Assembly (NCBI RefSeq): GCF_003334255.1
Contig: NZ_QOWU01000011.1
DNA length: 64,000 nucleotides
Reading direction: 5' to 3' (one strand)
From: Escherichia coli
GTDB lineage: Bacteria; Pseudomonadota; Gammaproteobacteria; Enterobacterales; Enterobacteriaceae
Both the position numbers and the translations under genes were made by a program. Numbering within the stretch: position 1 is the stretch's first letter; each line of letters begins with the position of its first letter. Positions 5,918 through 14,152 of this stretch are shown here, one piece after another. The notes below the pieces were generated by a model. That model saw only the letters and a program-made list of their open reading frames with translations. It was not told where the DNA came from and did not search any database.

Positions 5918-7069
5918 TTACCAGGCGGTATGGTAAAGCTCTACAATATCCTCAAGCGTTGCTTCACGCGGGTTGCCACCGGTACAAACATCATCCAGTG
6001 CCGCCTGCGCCAGTGCCGGAATGTCTTCCTTGCGTACACCAACATCACGCAAATGTGGCGGAATACCGACATCACGGTTGAGAGCAAACACCGCTTCAAC
6101 AGCGGCATTACGCGCCTCTTCCAGGCTCATACCTTCCACTTTCACGCCCATAACGCGCGCGATATCGCGGTACTTCTCACCGGTAAAGTCAGCGTTATAA
6201 CGCATGACATGCGGTAACAGGATGGCGTTCGCAACACCGTGTGGAGTGTTATAAAACGCGCCCAGTGGATGCGCCATACCATGCACCAACCCTAACCCAA
6301 CATTCGAGAAGCCCATACCCGCAACATACTGCCCGAGCGCCATTTCTTCTCCGGCATCCTTATCACCAGCAACCGATCCTCGCAGCGCCCCAGCAATGAT
6401 TTCAATCGCTTTAATGTGCAGTGCATCGGTTAGCGCCCACGCGCCACGGGTAATATACCCCTCAATAGCATGAGTGAGCGCATCGACACCCGTCGCAGCT
6501 TTCAGCGCTGGAGGCATACCATCCATCATGTCAGCGTCAATAAACGCCACCTGCGGGATATCATGCGGATCAACGCAAACAAACTTGCGCCGTTTCTCTT
6601 CGTCAGTGATCACGTAGTTAATGGTCACTTCTGCCGCAGTACCTGCTGTGGTAGGAATTGCCAGAATCGGTACACTGGGTTTATTGGTCGGGGAAAGCCC
6701 TTCCAGGCTACGCACATCGGCAAACTCCGGGTTGTTGCTGATAATGCCAATCGCTTTACAAGTATCCTGTGGAGAACCACCACCAATAGCGATCAGGTAA
6801 TCCGCGCCGCTATTCTGGAATACACCGAGCCCTTCTTTGACGACAGTAATTGTTGGGTTGGGCACTACGCCGTCGTAAATCGCCCATGCCAGCCCTGCAG
6901 CATCCATCTTATCGGTCACTTTCGCCACCACGCCGCATTGCACCAGCGTTTTATCGGTGACGATCAGCGCCTTCTGATAACCACGGCGTTTCACCTCATC
7001 GGTTAAAGCCCCAACAGCACCCCGACCAAACCATGCCGTTTCGTTCAGAATCATTCTGTTAGCCATCAT
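5918..7069 (-). CDS. fucO: L-1,2-propanediol oxidoreductase (lactaldehyde reductase), Fe-dependent alcohol dehydrogenase
   Basis: 382/383-aa ORF recognised as FucO. Two adjacent ATGs (7069 or 7066), both behind AAGGAG; start ambiguous by one codon. Confidence 0.9.
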   Translation of the reverse strand: MMANRMILNETAWFGRGAVGALTDEVKRRGYQKALIVTDKTLVQCGVVAKVTDKMDAAGLAWAIYDGVVPNPTITVVKEGLGVFQNSGADYLIAIGGGSPQDTCKAIGIISNNPEFADVRSLEGLSPTNKPSVPILAIPTTAGTAAEVTINYVITDEEKRRKFVCVDPHDIPQVAFIDADMMDGMPPALKAATGVDALTHAIEGYITRGAWALTDALHIKAIEIIAGALRGSVAGDKDAGEEMALGQYVAGMGFSNVGLGLVHGMAHPLGAFYNTPHGVANAILLPHVMRYNADFTGEKYRDIARVMGVKVEGMSLEEARNAAVEAVFALNRDVGIPPHLRDVGVRKEDIPALAQAALDDVCTGGNPREATLEDIVELYHTAW

Positions 7070-7093: not shown

Positions 7094-7741
7094 TTACTCT
7101 TCAATTCGTAACCCATAGGTTTTGAATTTCTCCAGCACTACGGCAATCTCTTCATCGCTCAGCACTGGCACCGGGTCCGTAATCGCCAGGGTCGTCAGGT
7201 AAAGTTGCGCCAGCACTTCAACTTCATGCGCCAGCCATAACGCTTTTTCCAGATTCACCTCACAAGCGATAAGCCCATGATGTTGTAACAAAGTTGCCTT
7301 ACGATTTTTGAGAGCCAGCGCAACATGTTCAGAAAGTTCGCGTGTTCCAAAGGTCGCATAAGGCGCGCAAGGAATAGAATTACCGCCAGCCGCCGCAATC
7401 ATGTAGTGAATAGCGGGGATCGATCGGTTAAGAATGGAAACTGCCGTGCAATGAACGGCATGATTGTGAACAACCGCGTTGGCATCCGGTCTGCTTTGAT
7501 AGGCTGCCATATGGAAACGCCATTCGCTTGAGGGGAGCTTTCCTTCCTCATGTTTACCGTTGCCATCAATAAAGACAATATGCGACTCCGTCAGTTTTTC
7601 ATATGGAATGCCTGTAGGCGTAATCAGCATCCCATCCTGATAACGTACACTGACGTTCCCCGCTGTCCCCTGGTTCAGTCCCAGGCGGGTCATTTCCAGG
7701 CAAGTGTCAATAATCTGACGAGCAAGTTTATTTCGTTCCAT
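7094..7741 (-). CDS. fucA: L-fuculose-1-phosphate aldolase
   Basis: 215-aa ORF recognised as FucA; fucAO operon divergent from fucPIKUR. Confidence 0.95.
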   Translation of the reverse strand: MERNKLARQIIDTCLEMTRLGLNQGTAGNVSVRYQDGMLITPTGIPYEKLTESHIVFIDGNGKHEEGKLPSSEWRFHMAAYQSRPDANAVVHNHAVHCTAVSILNRSIPAIHYMIAAAGGNSIPCAPYATFGTRELSEHVALALKNRKATLLQHHGLIACEVNLEKALWLAHEVEVLAQLYLTTLAITDPVPVLSDEEIAVVLEKFKTYGLRIEE

Positions 7742-7929
7742 TAGCTACCTCTCTCTGATTCAAAACAGGGCAATAATGTTGTTCCTTTCACACTATTGAA
7801 TTAGCCGTTTAATTACCCACCATCTTCTTCCTGATTAACAAGAAAGAAATTCACAAGCTTATATTTTGTGACCTGGTTCAACTAATCACAGTAAATAACT
7901 GCAAGTTCTCTTTTTATAACCCCATTAAA

Positions 7930-8025
7930 AATGACCGCTCTTAAAAATATTTATCAAAACGGTCATTTTTCTATTCCTCCAAGCCCGGAATGACCGTTTT
8001 CGGCACAAACAATTAATACGGTCAT
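7930..8025. promoter_or_regulatory. Two tandem 34-bp inverted-repeat units (AATGACCG-N22-CGGTCATT) in the fucA-fucP divergent control region; candidate FucR operators
   Basis: tgaccg at 7932-7937 pairs with cggtca at 7960-7965; tgaccg at 7991-7996 pairs with cggtca at 8019-8024. Units are 59 bp apart. Confidence 0.4.
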
Positions 8026-8083
8026 CTGATTTGTGTTTTTTATGATTTATTTTCTGAAACGGGCATGAAATTTCGATTATTAA

Positions 8084-8139
8084 AGTGATGGTAGTCACAT
8101 AAAGTCACCTTCTAGCTAATAAGTGTGACCGCCGTCATA
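8084..8139. promoter_or_regulatory. Two CRP-like sites (TGTGA-N6-TCACA pattern) upstream of fucP
   Basis: aGTGAtggtagTCACA at 8084-8099 and TGTGAccgccgTCAtA at 8124-8139, each one mismatch from the core consensus. Confidence 0.4.
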
Positions 8140-8287
8140 TTACAGAGCGTTTTTTATTTGAAAATGAATCCATGAGTTCATTTCAGACAGGCAAATATTC
8201 ACTGATATGAAGCCCGAACTCGCTGGTTTTGCACTTTTGAAAACATAACCGATTACGTGCTTAAGCTTCTGAACCTAAGAGGATGCT

Positions 8288-9604
8288 ATGGGAAACACAT
8301 CAATACAAACGCAGAGTTACCGTGCGGTAGATAAAGATGCAGGGCAAAGCAGAAGTTACATTATTCCATTCGCGCTGCTGTGCTCACTGTTTTTTCTTTG
8401 GGCGGTAGCCAATAACCTTAACGACATTTTATTACCTCAATTCCAGCAGGCTTTTACGCTGACAAATTTCCAGGCTGGCCTGATCCAATCGGCCTTTTAC
8501 TTTGGTTATTTCATTATCCCAATCCCTGCTGGAATATTGATGAAAAAACTCAGTTATAAAGCAGGGATTATTACCGGGTTATTTTTATATGCCTTGGGTG
8601 CTGCATTATTCTGGCCCGCCGCAGAAATAATGAACTACACCTTATTTTTAGTTGGCCTATTTATTATTGCAGCCGGATTAGGTTGTCTGGAAACTGCCGC
8701 AAACCCTTTTGTTACGGTATTAGGGCCGGAAAGTAGTGGTCACTTCCGCTTAAATCTTGCGCAAACATTTAACTCGTTTGGCGCAATTATCGCGGTTGTC
8801 TTTGGGCAAAGTCTTATTTTGTCTAACGTGCCACATCAATCGCAAGACGTTCTCGATAAAATGTCTCCAGAGCAATTGAGTGCGTATAAACACAGCCTGG
8901 TATTATCGGTACAGACACCTTATATGATCATCGTGGCTATCGTGTTACTGGTCGCCCTGCTGATCATGCTGACGAAATTCCCGGCATTGCAGAGTGATAA
9001 TCACAGTGACGCCAAACAAGGATCGTTCTCCGCATCGCTTTCTCGCCTGGCGCGTATTCGCCACTGGCGCTGGGCGGTATTAGCGCAATTCTGCTATGTC
9101 GGCGCACAAACGGCCTGCTGGAGCTATTTGATTCGCTACGCTGTAGAAGAAATTCCAGGTATGACTGCAGGCTTTGCCGCTAACTATTTAACCGGAACCA
9201 TGGTGTGCTTCTTTATTGGTCGTTTCACCGGTACCTGGCTCATCAGTCGCTTCGCACCACACAAAGTCCTGGCCGCCTACGCATTAATCGCTATGGCACT
9301 GTGCCTGATCTCAGCCTTCGCTGGCGGTCATGTGGGCTTAATAGCCCTGACTTTATGCAGCGCCTTTATGTCGATTCAGTACCCAACAATCTTCTCGCTG
9401 GGCATTAAGAATCTCGGCCAGGACACCAAATATGGTTCGTCCTTCATCGTTATGACCATTATTGGCGGCGGTATTGTCACTCCGGTCATGGGTTTTGTCA
9501 GTGACGCGGCGGGCAACATCCCCACTGCTGAACTGATCCCCGCACTCTGCTTCGCGGTCATCTTTATCTTTGCCCGTTTCCGTTCTCAAACGGCAACTAA
9601 CTGA
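8288..9604 (+). CDS. fucP: L-fucose:H+ symporter (MFS)
   Basis: 438-aa membrane ORF recognised as FucP. Confidence 0.95.
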   Translation: MGNTSIQTQSYRAVDKDAGQSRSYIIPFALLCSLFFLWAVANNLNDILLPQFQQAFTLTNFQAGLIQSAFYFGYFIIPIPAGILMKKLSYKAGIITGLFLYALGAALFWPAAEIMNYTLFLVGLFIIAAGLGCLETAANPFVTVLGPESSGHFRLNLAQTFNSFGAIIAVVFGQSLILSNVPHQSQDVLDKMSPEQLSAYKHSLVLSVQTPYMIIVAIVLLVALLIMLTKFPALQSDNHSDAKQGSFSASLSRLARIRHWRWAVLAQFCYVGAQTACWSYLIRYAVEEIPGMTAGFAANYLTGTMVCFFIGRFTGTWLISRFAPHKVLAAYALIAMALCLISAFAGGHVGLIALTLCSAFMSIQYPTIFSLGIKNLGQDTKYGSSFIVMTIIGGGIVTPVMGFVSDAAGNIPTAELIPALCFAVIFIFARFRSQTATN

Positions 9605-13420: not shown

Positions 13421-14152
13421 ATGAAAGCGGCACGCCAGCAAGCGATAGTCGACCTGCTGCTGAACCATACCAGCCTGACCACGGAAGCTCTCTCTGAACA
13501 GCTAAAGGTCAGTAAAGAAACCATTCGTCGCGATCTCAATGAATTACAGACGCAGGGTAAAATTCTGCGCAATCATGGACGCGCTAAATATATCCACCGT
13601 CAAAATCAAGACAGTGGCGATCCCTTTCACATCAGGCTGAAAAGCCATTATGCGCATAAAGCAGATATCGCGCGCGAGGCGCTCGCGTGGATTGAAGAAG
13701 GGATGGTGATAGCCTTAGACGCCAGTTCAACTTGCTGGTATCTGGCACGCCAGTTGCCTGACATCAACATTCAGGTCTTCACCAATAGCCATCCGATTTG
13801 CCATGAACTCGGTAAACGCGAACGCATTCAACTGATCAGTTCCGGCGGCACACTTGAGCGCAAATATGGCTGTTACGTCAATCCCTCGCTGATTTCCCAA
13901 CTTAAATCGCTGGAAATCGATCTGTTTATTTTTTCTTGTGAAGGGATCGATAGCAGCGGCGCACTGTGGGACTCCAATGCGATCAACGCTGATTACAAAT
14001 CGATGCTATTAAAACGTGCCGCGCAATCGTTGTTATTGATTGATAAAAGTAAATTTAATCGTTCAGGGGAAGCCCGCATCGGGCATCTGGATGAGGTAAC
14101 GCACATTATTTCTGATGAGCGCCAGGTTGCAACTTCTTTGGTAACAGCCTGA
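13421..14152 (+). CDS. fucR: DeoR-family activator of the fuc regulon
   Basis: 243-aa ORF from ATG 13421 (track uses GTG 13412); N-terminal HTH, C-terminal DeoR sugar-phosphate domain; recognised as FucR. Confidence 0.85.
   Translation: MKAARQQAIVDLLLNHTSLTTEALSEQLKVSKETIRRDLNELQTQGKILRNHGRAKYIHRQNQDSGDPFHIRLKSHYAHKADIAREALAWIEEGMVIALDASSTCWYLARQLPDINIQVFTNSHPICHELGKRERIQLISSGGTLERKYGCYVNPSLISQLKSLEIDLFIFSCEGIDSSGALWDSNAINADYKSMLLKRAAQSLLLIDKSKFNRSGEARIGHLDEVTHIISDERQVATSLVTA

What the first reader, a model, noticed from the sequence alone, without database searches (positions are those of the whole stretch)
7930..8025. Two tandem 34-bp inverted-repeat units in the fucA-fucP divergent promoter region
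The motif AATGACCG-N22-CGGTCATT occurs twice (7930-7967 and 7989-8025), 59 bp apart. Such long-spaced inverted repeats, duplicated in tandem, are unusual for random sequence and typical of operator sites for an oligomeric regulator. The DeoR-family activator FucR, encoded in this cluster, is the obvious candidate. I do not recall the FucR operator well enough to confirm.
Basis: seen in the sequence. Interest (0 to 1): 0.45.

Follow-up and report, generated by a model that had tools for sequence, protein, structure and literature searches.

The report
FucR operator boxes, fuc divergent promoter
The two inverted repeats are real and are binding boxes for FucR, the fucose activator, in the E. coli K-12 fucA-fucP control region; two of the four arms are already validated in print, so the finding is correct but essentially known.

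Summary
The window holds the E. coli fuc regulon, and its fucA-fucP intergenic region is identical to K-12 MG1655. AATGACCG-N22-CGGTCATT is exact at 7930-7967. A second copy at 7989-8026 ends in C, so its arms match 7 of 8. Shuffles predict 0.03 such matches.

The two left arms are the published FucR sites OFucR3 and OFucR2 (PMC11011485). Mutating OFucR3 lowers fucose-induced PfucAO activity more than 50-fold; mutating OFucR2 lowers it about 30%. The right arms match the quoted DAP-seq FucR consensus as well or better: 7953-7967 fits 15 of 15 positions.

A fifth box, CGGGCATG, lies at 8060-8067. A 2025 paper mentions four known FucR sites, two of them "putative" for fucPIK, but gives no coordinates in the text.

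In 47 Enterobacterales fucA-fucP regions, all five cores are phylogenetic footprints:
- The spacer inside a pair is always 22 or 23 bp.
- The distance between units varies from 40 to 82 bp.
- 89 of 91 such pairs in 524 kb lie upstream of fucA.
- The arms do not covary, which rules out a hairpin.

Verdict: observation confirmed, interpretation supported, already known. The fixed-spacer pairing and the fifth box are small refinements.

The parts
7930..7944 (-). FucR box A, the left arm of unit 1. It equals published OFucR3/OR3 (ttaagagCGGtCAtt on the fucA-sense strand); core TGACCG at 7932-7937.
   Evidence: Exact match to the published site. Mutating it lowers fucose-induced PfucAO activity more than 50-fold (PMC11011485). 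The core columns are invariant in alignment A1.
7953..7967 (+). FucR box B, the right arm of unit 1 (atcaaaaCGGTCATT); core CGGTCA at 7960-7965. It points towards fucP.
   Evidence: Zero mismatches to the quoted DAP-seq consensus RYSMRHWCGGKCAWB. AA-CGG-CA is invariant in 17 genomes. It lies 22-23 bp from box A wherever the pair is found. No mutational test was found in the papers read.
7989..8003 (-). FucR box C, the left arm of unit 2. It equals published OFucR2/OR2 (ccgaaaaCGGtCAtt); core TGACCG at 7991-7996.
   Evidence: Exact match. The site was proposed from DAP-seq, and mutating it lowers induced PfucAO activity by about 30%. TG-CCGTTT is invariant.
8012..8026 (+). FucR box D, the right arm of unit 2 (attaataCGGTCATC); core CGGTCA at 8019-8024. 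It points towards fucP.
   Evidence: One mismatch to the consensus. TAA--CGG-CA is invariant. It lies outside the -270 fragment that keeps full PfucAO activity, so it is not needed for fucAO.
8053..8067 (+). FucR-type box E (tctgaaaCGGGCATg); core CGGGCA at 8060-8065. It is a direct repeat of D, 41 bp further towards fucP and just upstream of OCrp1.
   Evidence: It fits the consensus core CGG[T/G]CA. C-AA-CGG-CAT is invariant in A1. A plus-strand box lies 40-43 bp after D in 39 of 47 loci.
8032..8041 (.). Conserved block X (TGTGTTTTTT; TGTGGGTTTT in most relatives) at the position where an N22 partner of box E would sit. Its function is unresolved.
   Evidence: GTG and TTT are invariant in A1. 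Photorhabdus has a canonical ATGACCG at this position.
7864..7885 (-). CRP site OCrp2, essential for PfucAO and centred about -70.5 from the fucA transcription start at 7804.
   Evidence: Sequence quoted in PMC11011485 and located in the window.
8082..8103 (+). CRP site OCrp1 (aaaGTGAtggtagTCACAtaaa) of the fucPIK promoter.
   Evidence: The position follows from the IS5 target CTAG at 8112-8115, which lies between OCrp0 and OCrp1. GTGA...TCACA is invariant in A1.
8120..8141 (+). CRP site OCrp0 (aagTGTGAccgccgTCATAtta). It contains a TGACCG that is part of the CRP half-site, not a FucR box.
   Evidence: A T insertion at -146 from fucP (window 8142) is described as 'immediately downstream of OCrp0'; sequence.
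13421..14152 (+). fucR, the DeoR-family L-fucose operon activator that reads the boxes.
   Evidence: NCBIfam NF007720 equivalog, 508 bits against a cutoff of 259; residues 4-246 of the ORF cover the whole 243-position profile.

Best explanation
The repeat arms are recognition boxes for FucR, the DeoR-family activator that works with bound fuculose-1-phosphate. Each box is about 12-15 bp and asymmetric: an A-rich tail followed by CGGnCAT. The fucA-fucP control region carries five. A and C lie on the minus strand and B, D and E on the plus strand. They form two tail-to-tail dyads, A.B and C.D, each with a 22-bp spacer, plus a direct repeat E 41 bp beyond D. When fucose is metabolised, FucR occupies the boxes and, together with CRP-cAMP bound between the boxes and each promoter, switches on the two weak divergent promoters. 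Box A (strongly) and box C (weakly) drive PfucAO; this is shown by published mutagenesis. I infer that B, D and E, which read towards fucP, serve PfucPIK. I also infer that each dyad is occupied as a unit by two subunits of a FucR oligomer spanning about 28-29 bp of AT-rich, bendable DNA. Because the boxes lie 105-220 bp upstream of the starts, activation probably works by helping CRP bind or by remodelling a repressed AT-rich region. Direct contact with RNA polymerase is less likely. This last point is the published authors' proposal and has not been demonstrated.
For: Shown here or in print:
- The window is the E. coli fuc regulon, and its intergenic region is identical to K-12.
- The left arms equal the published OFucR3 and OFucR2. 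Mutating them costs more than 50-fold and about 30% of fucose-induced PfucAO activity.
- All arms and box E fit the FucR DAP-seq consensus quoted: B has 0 mismatches, C and D have 1, A and E have 3.
- In a 17-genome alignment the invariant columns fall on the five cores and on OCrp1. The middle base of CGGnCA varies exactly where the DAP-seq motif is degenerate.
- In 47 fucA-fucP regions there are 246 CGGNCA boxes against 24 expected. There are 84 divergent N22/23 pairs against 0.01 expected. Every region has at least one pair and 37 have two.
- The only divergent spacers below 56 bp are 22 (73 times) and 23 (11 times), while the unit-to-unit distance ranges from 40 to 82 bp.
- In 524 kb of fetched loci, 89 of 91 pairs lie upstream of fucA.
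- Serratia sp. DD3 has a fucAO that is not divergent from fucP yet keeps a complete perfect dyad.
- PMC11894529 speaks of four known FucR sites, with OR0 and OR1 putative for PfucPIKR.
Against: - Published 5' truncations argue against an obligate dyad for fucAO. The -270 fragment (window up to 8011, lacking D and E) keeps full induced activity. The -206 fragment (up to 7947, keeping box A only) keeps about 70%.
- No footprint, EMSA or mutation for boxes B, D or E was found in the papers I could read.
- A fucose biosensor study fitted a Hill coefficient of 1, which gives no sign of strong cooperativity.
- The core-to-core distance of 28-29 bp is about 2.7 helical turns, so the two arms do not face the same side of straight DNA.
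- The loci compared are phylogenetically related, so counts of loci overstate the number of independent observations. The fully diverged spacers and flanks mitigate this.
Confidence: 0.85

Rival explanations
1. The boxes are independent single FucR sites and are not read as dyad units. Boxes reading towards fucA (A, C) serve PfucAO, and boxes reading towards fucP (B, D, E) serve PfucPIK. The inverted-repeat appearance is then a by-product of packing two oppositely oriented sets into one divergent region.
For: Box A alone supports about 70% of induced PfucAO activity, and losing D and E costs nothing. The DAP-seq motif is a single asymmetric 15-mer. Each box's CAT end points towards one promoter. 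The biosensor Hill coefficient was 1.
Against: If the two sets were independent, the A-C and B-D distances should be conserved and the A-B distance free. The opposite is seen: A-B and C-D are fixed at N22/23, while unit-to-unit distance varies from 40 to 82 bp. A non-divergent fucAO in Serratia sp. DD3 still carries a complete dyad.
Confidence: 0.25
2. Only the two published left arms are functional FucR sites. The right arms are non-functional look-alikes.
For: Only the left arms have been mutated and shown to matter. The right arms are dispensable for PfucAO.
Against: The right arms are as invariant as the validated left arms across genera whose spacers have fully diverged. Box B is the best consensus match in the region. 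Chance gives 0.01 such pairs against 84 observed. PMC11894529 lists two further putative FucR operators for fucPIK.
Confidence: 0.05
3. The inverted repeats act through nucleic-acid secondary structure (a cruciform or an RNA hairpin), or they are sites for a factor other than FucR such as CRP.
For: Single-stranded DNA from 7920-8035 folds better than shuffles (z = -3.6), pairing the arms. A TGACCG also occurs inside the CRP site OCrp0.
Against: - The region lies between two divergent transcription starts (fucA at 7804, reading leftwards; fucP to the right of OCrp0), so it is not normally transcribed.
- The stems are 7-11 bp with 22-nt loops.
- The degenerate core base does not covary between arms: 43 pairs are the same and 41 differ. 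Flanking bases are not complementary beyond chance.
- No Rfam family, terminator or promoter consensus was found.
- The CRP consensus TGTGA-N6-TCACA is not present in the arms.
Confidence: 0.02

Closest known systems
Published E. coli FucR operators OFucR2/OFucR3 (Zhang et al. 2024, PMC11011485) and OR0-OR3 (Zhou et al. 2025, PMC11894529)
   Same: This is the same locus and the same sequence. The left arms are exactly OFucR3 (7930-7944) and OFucR2 (7989-8003). The 2025 paper counts four FucR sites, all on the fucA side of the IS5 target at 8112-8115.
   Different: In the text I could read, the papers treat the sites as single 15-mers. They do not describe the inverted pairing, the fixed 22-bp spacer or its conservation. 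Coordinates of OR0 and OR1 appear only in a figure that is not held, so I cannot say which of B, D and E they are. Five boxes are visible here, so at least one is apparently not in the published list.
FucR DAP-seq motif (Baumgart et al. 2021, Nat Methods; seen only as quoted in PMC11011485)
   Same: The pooled half-site profile from 108 arms in relatives is aAAaCGGnCAtt. This is the same motif, with the same degenerate position.
   Different: The motif is a single asymmetric box. Motif finders do not report long-spaced dyads. The original paper could not be read.
Operators of other DeoR-family regulators (DeoR, GlpR, AgaR, UlaR); from general knowledge
   Same: They also have several operator copies spread over a sugar-operon control region, read by an oligomeric regulator that responds to a sugar phosphate.
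   Different: Those proteins are repressors whose operators overlap or flank promoters, and DeoR acts by looping between distant palindromes. FucR is an activator. Its boxes are far upstream, pair tail-to-tail across 22 bp, and act with CRP. None of this was tested here for those proteins.
MelR/CRP at melAB and RhaS/RhaR/CRP at the rha operons (activator plus CRP arrays at sugar promoters); from general knowledge
   Same: The working logic is shared: a sugar-specific activator binds several sites, some as inverted pairs, upstream of a CRP site, and both are needed to fire a weak promoter. The rha and ara systems also have divergent layouts.
   Different: Those activators belong to the AraC family, which is unrelated to DeoR. 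Site lengths and geometry differ. This is a functional analogy only.

Membership tests
FucR operator (E. coli fuc regulon) | Match to the FucR recognition motif [GA][CT][CG][AC][AG][ATC][AT]CGG[TG]CA[TA][TCG] | tested here: met
   Box B has 0 mismatches, C and D have 1, and A and E have 3, all in the degenerate tail. The core CGG[T/G]CA is intact in all five. The motif is as quoted in PMC11011485.
FucR operator (E. coli fuc regulon) | Location in the control region of FucR-dependent operons, next to a fucR gene | tested here: met
   The boxes lie between fucA and fucP, with fucR in the same cluster. The intergenic sequence is identical to K-12.
FucR operator (E. coli fuc regulon) | Loss of fucose/FucR-dependent activation when the site is mutated | not testable with these tools
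   This is published for the left arms only: OFucR3 more than 50-fold and OFucR2 about 30%. No data were found for the right arms or for box E.
FucR operator (E. coli fuc regulon) | Direct binding by FucR protein at these coordinates | not testable with these tools
   DAP-seq is reported to have identified OFucR2. The source paper is not held. No footprint or EMSA was found.
FucR operator (E. coli fuc regulon) | Conservation with the regulon across species (phylogenetic footprint) | tested here: met
   All five cores are invariant in 17 genomes. Pairs are present in 47 of 47 fucA-fucP regions, and 89 of 91 pairs lie upstream of fucA.
Dyad operator read as one unit by an oligomer | Fixed spacing between the two arms, independent of the surrounding sequence | tested here: met
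   The spacer is 22 (73 times) or 23 (11 times) and never anything else below 56 bp. Inter-unit spacing is 40-82 bp.
Dyad operator read as one unit by an oligomer | Both arms required for function or for cooperative binding | tested here: inconclusive
   Published truncations keep about 70% of PfucAO activity with box A alone, which argues against a strict requirement at that promoter. No data exist for PfucPIK or for binding affinity.
Structured DNA/RNA element (hairpin or cruciform) | Compensatory changes that preserve arm complementarity | tested here: not met
   The degenerate core base is the same in 43 pairs and different in 41. Flanks are not complementary. There is no Rfam match.

The most novel reading that the evidence does not exclude
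FucR does not read isolated 15-mers. It reads tail-to-tail dyads with an invariant 22-bp spacer: A.B, C.D and perhaps a third, degenerate X.E. One shared FucR-CRP array would then activate both divergent fuc promoters. Box B (7953-7967), the best consensus match, and/or box E may be missing from the published set of four sites. This would give a DeoR-family activator an unusually wide half-site separation of about 28-29 bp, implying an extended oligomer or wrapped AT-rich DNA.
Probability: 0.5. Interest if true: 0.3.

Novelty: already known. Interest (0 to 1): 0.15.

Why it matters
This is the textbook fucose regulon of E. coli K-12. FucR binding at these sequences has been reported and partly validated since 2021-2025, so the finding adds little.

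The small gain is architectural. Comparison of 47 Enterobacterales loci shows that the boxes form fixed-spacer inverted pairs, with a fifth direct-repeat box. It also shows that the untested right arms are as constrained as the validated left arms. This gives precise, cheap targets for the fucPIK promoter, whose FucR sites are still called "putative": mutate B, D and E, and alter the spacer.

It also bears on how DeoR-family proteins can act as activators. And it could help people who build fucose biosensors from this promoter region.

Tried and rejected
- **Hairpin or cruciform:** the arms fold in silico, but they do not covary and the region is untranscribed. Rejected.
- **Known RNA family, terminator or consensus promoter in 7600-8400:** none found.
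- **Recent tandem duplication:** the two 22-bp spacers share no similarity, and only the arms are conserved. Rejected.
- **Extra FucR pair at 8124-8138 (GTGACCGCCGTCATA):** this is the CRP site OCrp0. Rejected.
- **Degenerate 15-mer consensus with 3 mismatches:** 636 hits against 660 expected, so it is uninformative at that stringency. Only the matches with 0 or 1 mismatch are useful.
- **AACGGNCAT alone:** not enriched in the window, 5 against 2.6 expected. The signal lies in the clustering and pairing.
- **FucR against solved structures:** no hit at E <= 1e-3, so no structural template was available to judge whether a dimer can span 28-29 bp.
- **Literature not reached:** Baumgart 2021 and Podolny 1999 are not held. 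The coordinates of OR0 and OR1 could not be recovered from the text or supplements of PMC11894529. No later paper on PfucPIK operators was found. A search for DeoR-family operator geometry gave nothing directly comparable.

Full report
**What the window is.** ORFs around the finding match curated NCBIfam equivalogs:
- L-fuculose-phosphate aldolase FucA (7094-7741, minus strand)
- lactaldehyde reductase FucO (5918-7069, minus strand)
- the fucose:H+ symporter FucP (8288-9604, plus strand)
- FucI, FucK and FucU
- the "L-fucose operon activator" FucR (13421-14152, plus strand; 508 bits against a cutoff of 259)

The 546-bp fucA-fucP intergenic region occurs in 5025 of 5426 complete E. coli genomes. 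It is identical, base for base, to that of K-12 MG1655. [quoted passage not shown] It recurs at 7989-8026 with one mismatch, because the last base is C. Shuffles give 0.03 matches. The 34-bp core form TGNCCG-N22-CGGNCA is found only at 7932-7965 and 7991-8024 in the 64 kb, against 0.08 expected. The arms of unit 1 extend to a perfect 11 bp (7927-7937 and 7960-7970). The two spacers are unrelated, so this is not a recent duplication.

**What is already published.**
- Zhang et al. 2024 (PMC11011485) quote the FucR motif that Baumgart et al. 2021 derived by DAP-seq: [GA][CT][CG][AC][AG][ATC][AT]CGG[TG]CA[TA][TCG], with CGG and CA the most conserved positions.
- They define two sites on the fucA-sense strand, OFucR2 = ccgaaaaCGGtCAtt and OFucR3 = ttaagagCGGtCAtt. 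These are the reverse complements of window 7989-8003 and 7930-7944, which are the left arms of unit 2 and unit 1.
- Mutating OFucR3 lowered fucose-induced PfucAO activity more than 50-fold. Mutating OFucR2 lowered it by about 30%. Neither mutation mattered without fucose.
- The fucA transcription start was mapped 63 nt upstream of the start codon (window 7804). The essential CRP site OCrp2 (7864-7885) lies between the start and box A.
- Zhou et al. [quoted passage not shown] They also state that "all four known binding sites" lie on the fucA side of the IS5 target CTAG, here 8112-8115.
- The coordinates of OR0 and OR1 are given only in a figure that is not held.

FucR binding in this stretch is therefore known.

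**The right arms and a fifth box.** Scored against the quoted consensus, box B (7953-7967) has no mismatch. C and D (8012-8026) have one each. The validated box A has three, as does a fifth box E (8053-8067, tctgaaaCGGGCATg). Orientations along the plus strand are A left, B right, C left, D right, E right. Core start positions are 7932, 7960, 7991, 8019 and 8060.

**Comparative test.** A scan of one genome per species with FucA returned 80 loci. Of these, 46 have fucP divergent from fucA at more than 75% identity. Together with the window this gives 47 intergenic regions, from Escherichia to Yersinia and Photorhabdus.
- In a 17-genome alignment with 69% mean column identity, the invariant columns fall on the five cores and on the CRP site OCrp1. 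The cores read AAA-TG-CCG-T, AA-CGG-CA, TG-CCGTTT, TAA--CGG-CA and C-AA-CGG-CAT.
- One further short block is also invariant. It is described under "An unresolved detail" below.
- The middle base of CGGnCA varies among T, G and A, just where the DAP-seq motif is degenerate. The untested boxes B, D and E are thus as constrained as the validated A and C.
- Across the 47 regions there are 246 CGGNCA boxes against 24 ± 5 in dinucleotide shuffles. There are 84 divergent pairs with a 22- or 23-bp spacer against 0.01 expected.
- Every region has at least one pair, and 37 have two.
- The only divergent spacers shorter than 56 bp are 22 (73 cases) and 23 (11 cases).
- The distance between unit centres varies: 40 in Photorhabdus, 53.5-59 in most Enterobacteriaceae and 66-82 in Yersinia.
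- A plus-strand box lies 40-43 bp beyond D in 39 of 47 regions.
- In all 524 kb fetched, 89 of 91 such pairs are upstream of fucA. These include Edwardsiella, which has only a distant FucP relative. They also include Serratia sp. DD3, where fucAO follows a co-directional gene yet keeps one perfect dyad, AAATGCCCGTTT-N16-AAACGGGCATTT.
- The pooled half-site profile is aAAaCGGnCAtt, and the spacers are AT-rich.

**Rivals examined.**
- *Hairpin or cruciform.* The arms pair in a single-strand fold. However, the stretch lies between two divergent starts and is not normally transcribed. The degenerate core base is the same in 43 pairs and different in 41, and the flanks are not complementary. Rfam, terminator and promoter scans are empty. 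This reading is rejected.
- *The TGACCG at 8125-8130.* It belongs to the CRP site OCrp0.
- *"One arm per promoter", with no pairing.* This predicts conserved A-C and B-D spacing and a free A-B spacing. The opposite is observed, and the non-divergent Serratia sp. DD3 locus keeps a full dyad.
- *Evidence on the other side.* Published 5' truncations show that a fragment ending at -270 (window 8011, lacking D and E) has full induced PfucAO activity. A fragment ending at -206 (window 7947, box A only) keeps about 70%. The partner arm is therefore not strictly needed at PfucAO when FucR is plentiful. A biosensor study fitted a Hill coefficient of 1.

**How it most likely works.**
- *Shown:* fuculose-1-phosphate-activated FucR acts through boxes A and C, together with CRP at OCrp2, to fire PfucAO.
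- *Inferred from motif identity, conservation and orientation:* B, D and E are FucR boxes too, and they serve PfucPIK together with CRP at OCrp1 and OCrp0.
- *Inferred from the invariant spacer:* each dyad is occupied by two subunits of one FucR oligomer across about 28-29 bp. That is about 2.7 helical turns, so flexible winged-helix tethers or bending of the AT-rich spacer would be needed. D and E, 41-42 bp apart (about 4 turns), lie on one face of the helix.
- *Proposed by the published authors, not demonstrated:* because the boxes are 105-220 bp upstream of the starts, FucR probably acts by promoting CRP binding or by opening a repressed AT-rich region, not by touching RNA polymerase.

**An unresolved detail.** A conserved block at 8032-8041 sits exactly where an N22 partner of box E would lie. 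It reads TGTGTTTTTT in E. coli and TGTGGGTTTT in most relatives. In Photorhabdus that position carries a canonical ATGACCG. It lacks the CC of TGnCCG. It may be a degenerate third dyad or the site of another factor.

**Verdict.** The core of this is already in the literature, so I rate it "already known" with low interest (0.15). The refinements made here are modest but directly testable:
- fixed N22 dyads conserved across Enterobacterales
- right arms as constrained as the validated left arms
- a fifth box E, and possibly a sixth position X

Noticed in passing
window 8032-8041: A conserved block (TGTGTTTTTT; TGTGGGTTTT in most Enterobacteriaceae) lies exactly 22 bp left of FucR-type box E, where a dyad partner would sit. 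Photorhabdus has a canonical ATGACCG there. It may be a degenerate third dyad or the site of another factor.
   Followed up: partly
A box at this spacing is found in 39 of 47 related loci.
   Followed up: yes
window 7832-7856 (fucA -91 to -115): PMC11011485 prints the PfucAO -35 element as TTGtgA at -96 to -91. The K-12/window sequence there is TAATCA, and TTGTGA lies at -115 to -110, which is 36 bp from the stated -10. The printed coordinates or the hexamer appear to be in error.
   Followed up: partly
window 8221-8229; locus L082 (E. coli EC25, NZ_CM169476.1): A human-gut isolate carries an IS1 insertion in the fucP leader with a 9-bp target duplication, CGCTGGTTT. This is a different element and a different site from the well-known IS5 insertion at 8112-8115.
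   Followed up: partly
window 7742-8287: 401 of 5426 complete E. coli genomes have no match to the fuc intergenic region. Strain TW10598 keeps only its first 67 bp, which suggests that deletions or replacements of the fuc control region or cluster occur in natural strains.
   Followed up: no
L056 2809-2848 (Serratia sp. DD3): Here fucAO follows a co-directional 332-aa gene instead of being divergent from fucP. It still has a single perfect dyad, AAATGCCCGTTT-N16-AAACGGGCATTT, about 160 bp upstream of fucA.
   Followed up: partly
L029 (labelled Martelella alba) and L010 (labelled Serratia marcescens): Both records carry Enterobacteriaceae-type fuc loci: FucA 88-92% and FucP 86-91% identical to E. 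coli, with the same five-box layout. For an alphaproteobacterium in particular, this looks like contamination or mislabelling of the assembly.
   Followed up: no
L031-L067 (about 30 loci, e.g. Citrobacter, Atlantibacter, Buttiauxella): FucA homologues at 82-87% identity have no adjacent fucP and no FucR-type dyad upstream. They are probably paralogous aldolase genes in other sugar clusters under different regulators.
   Followed up: no
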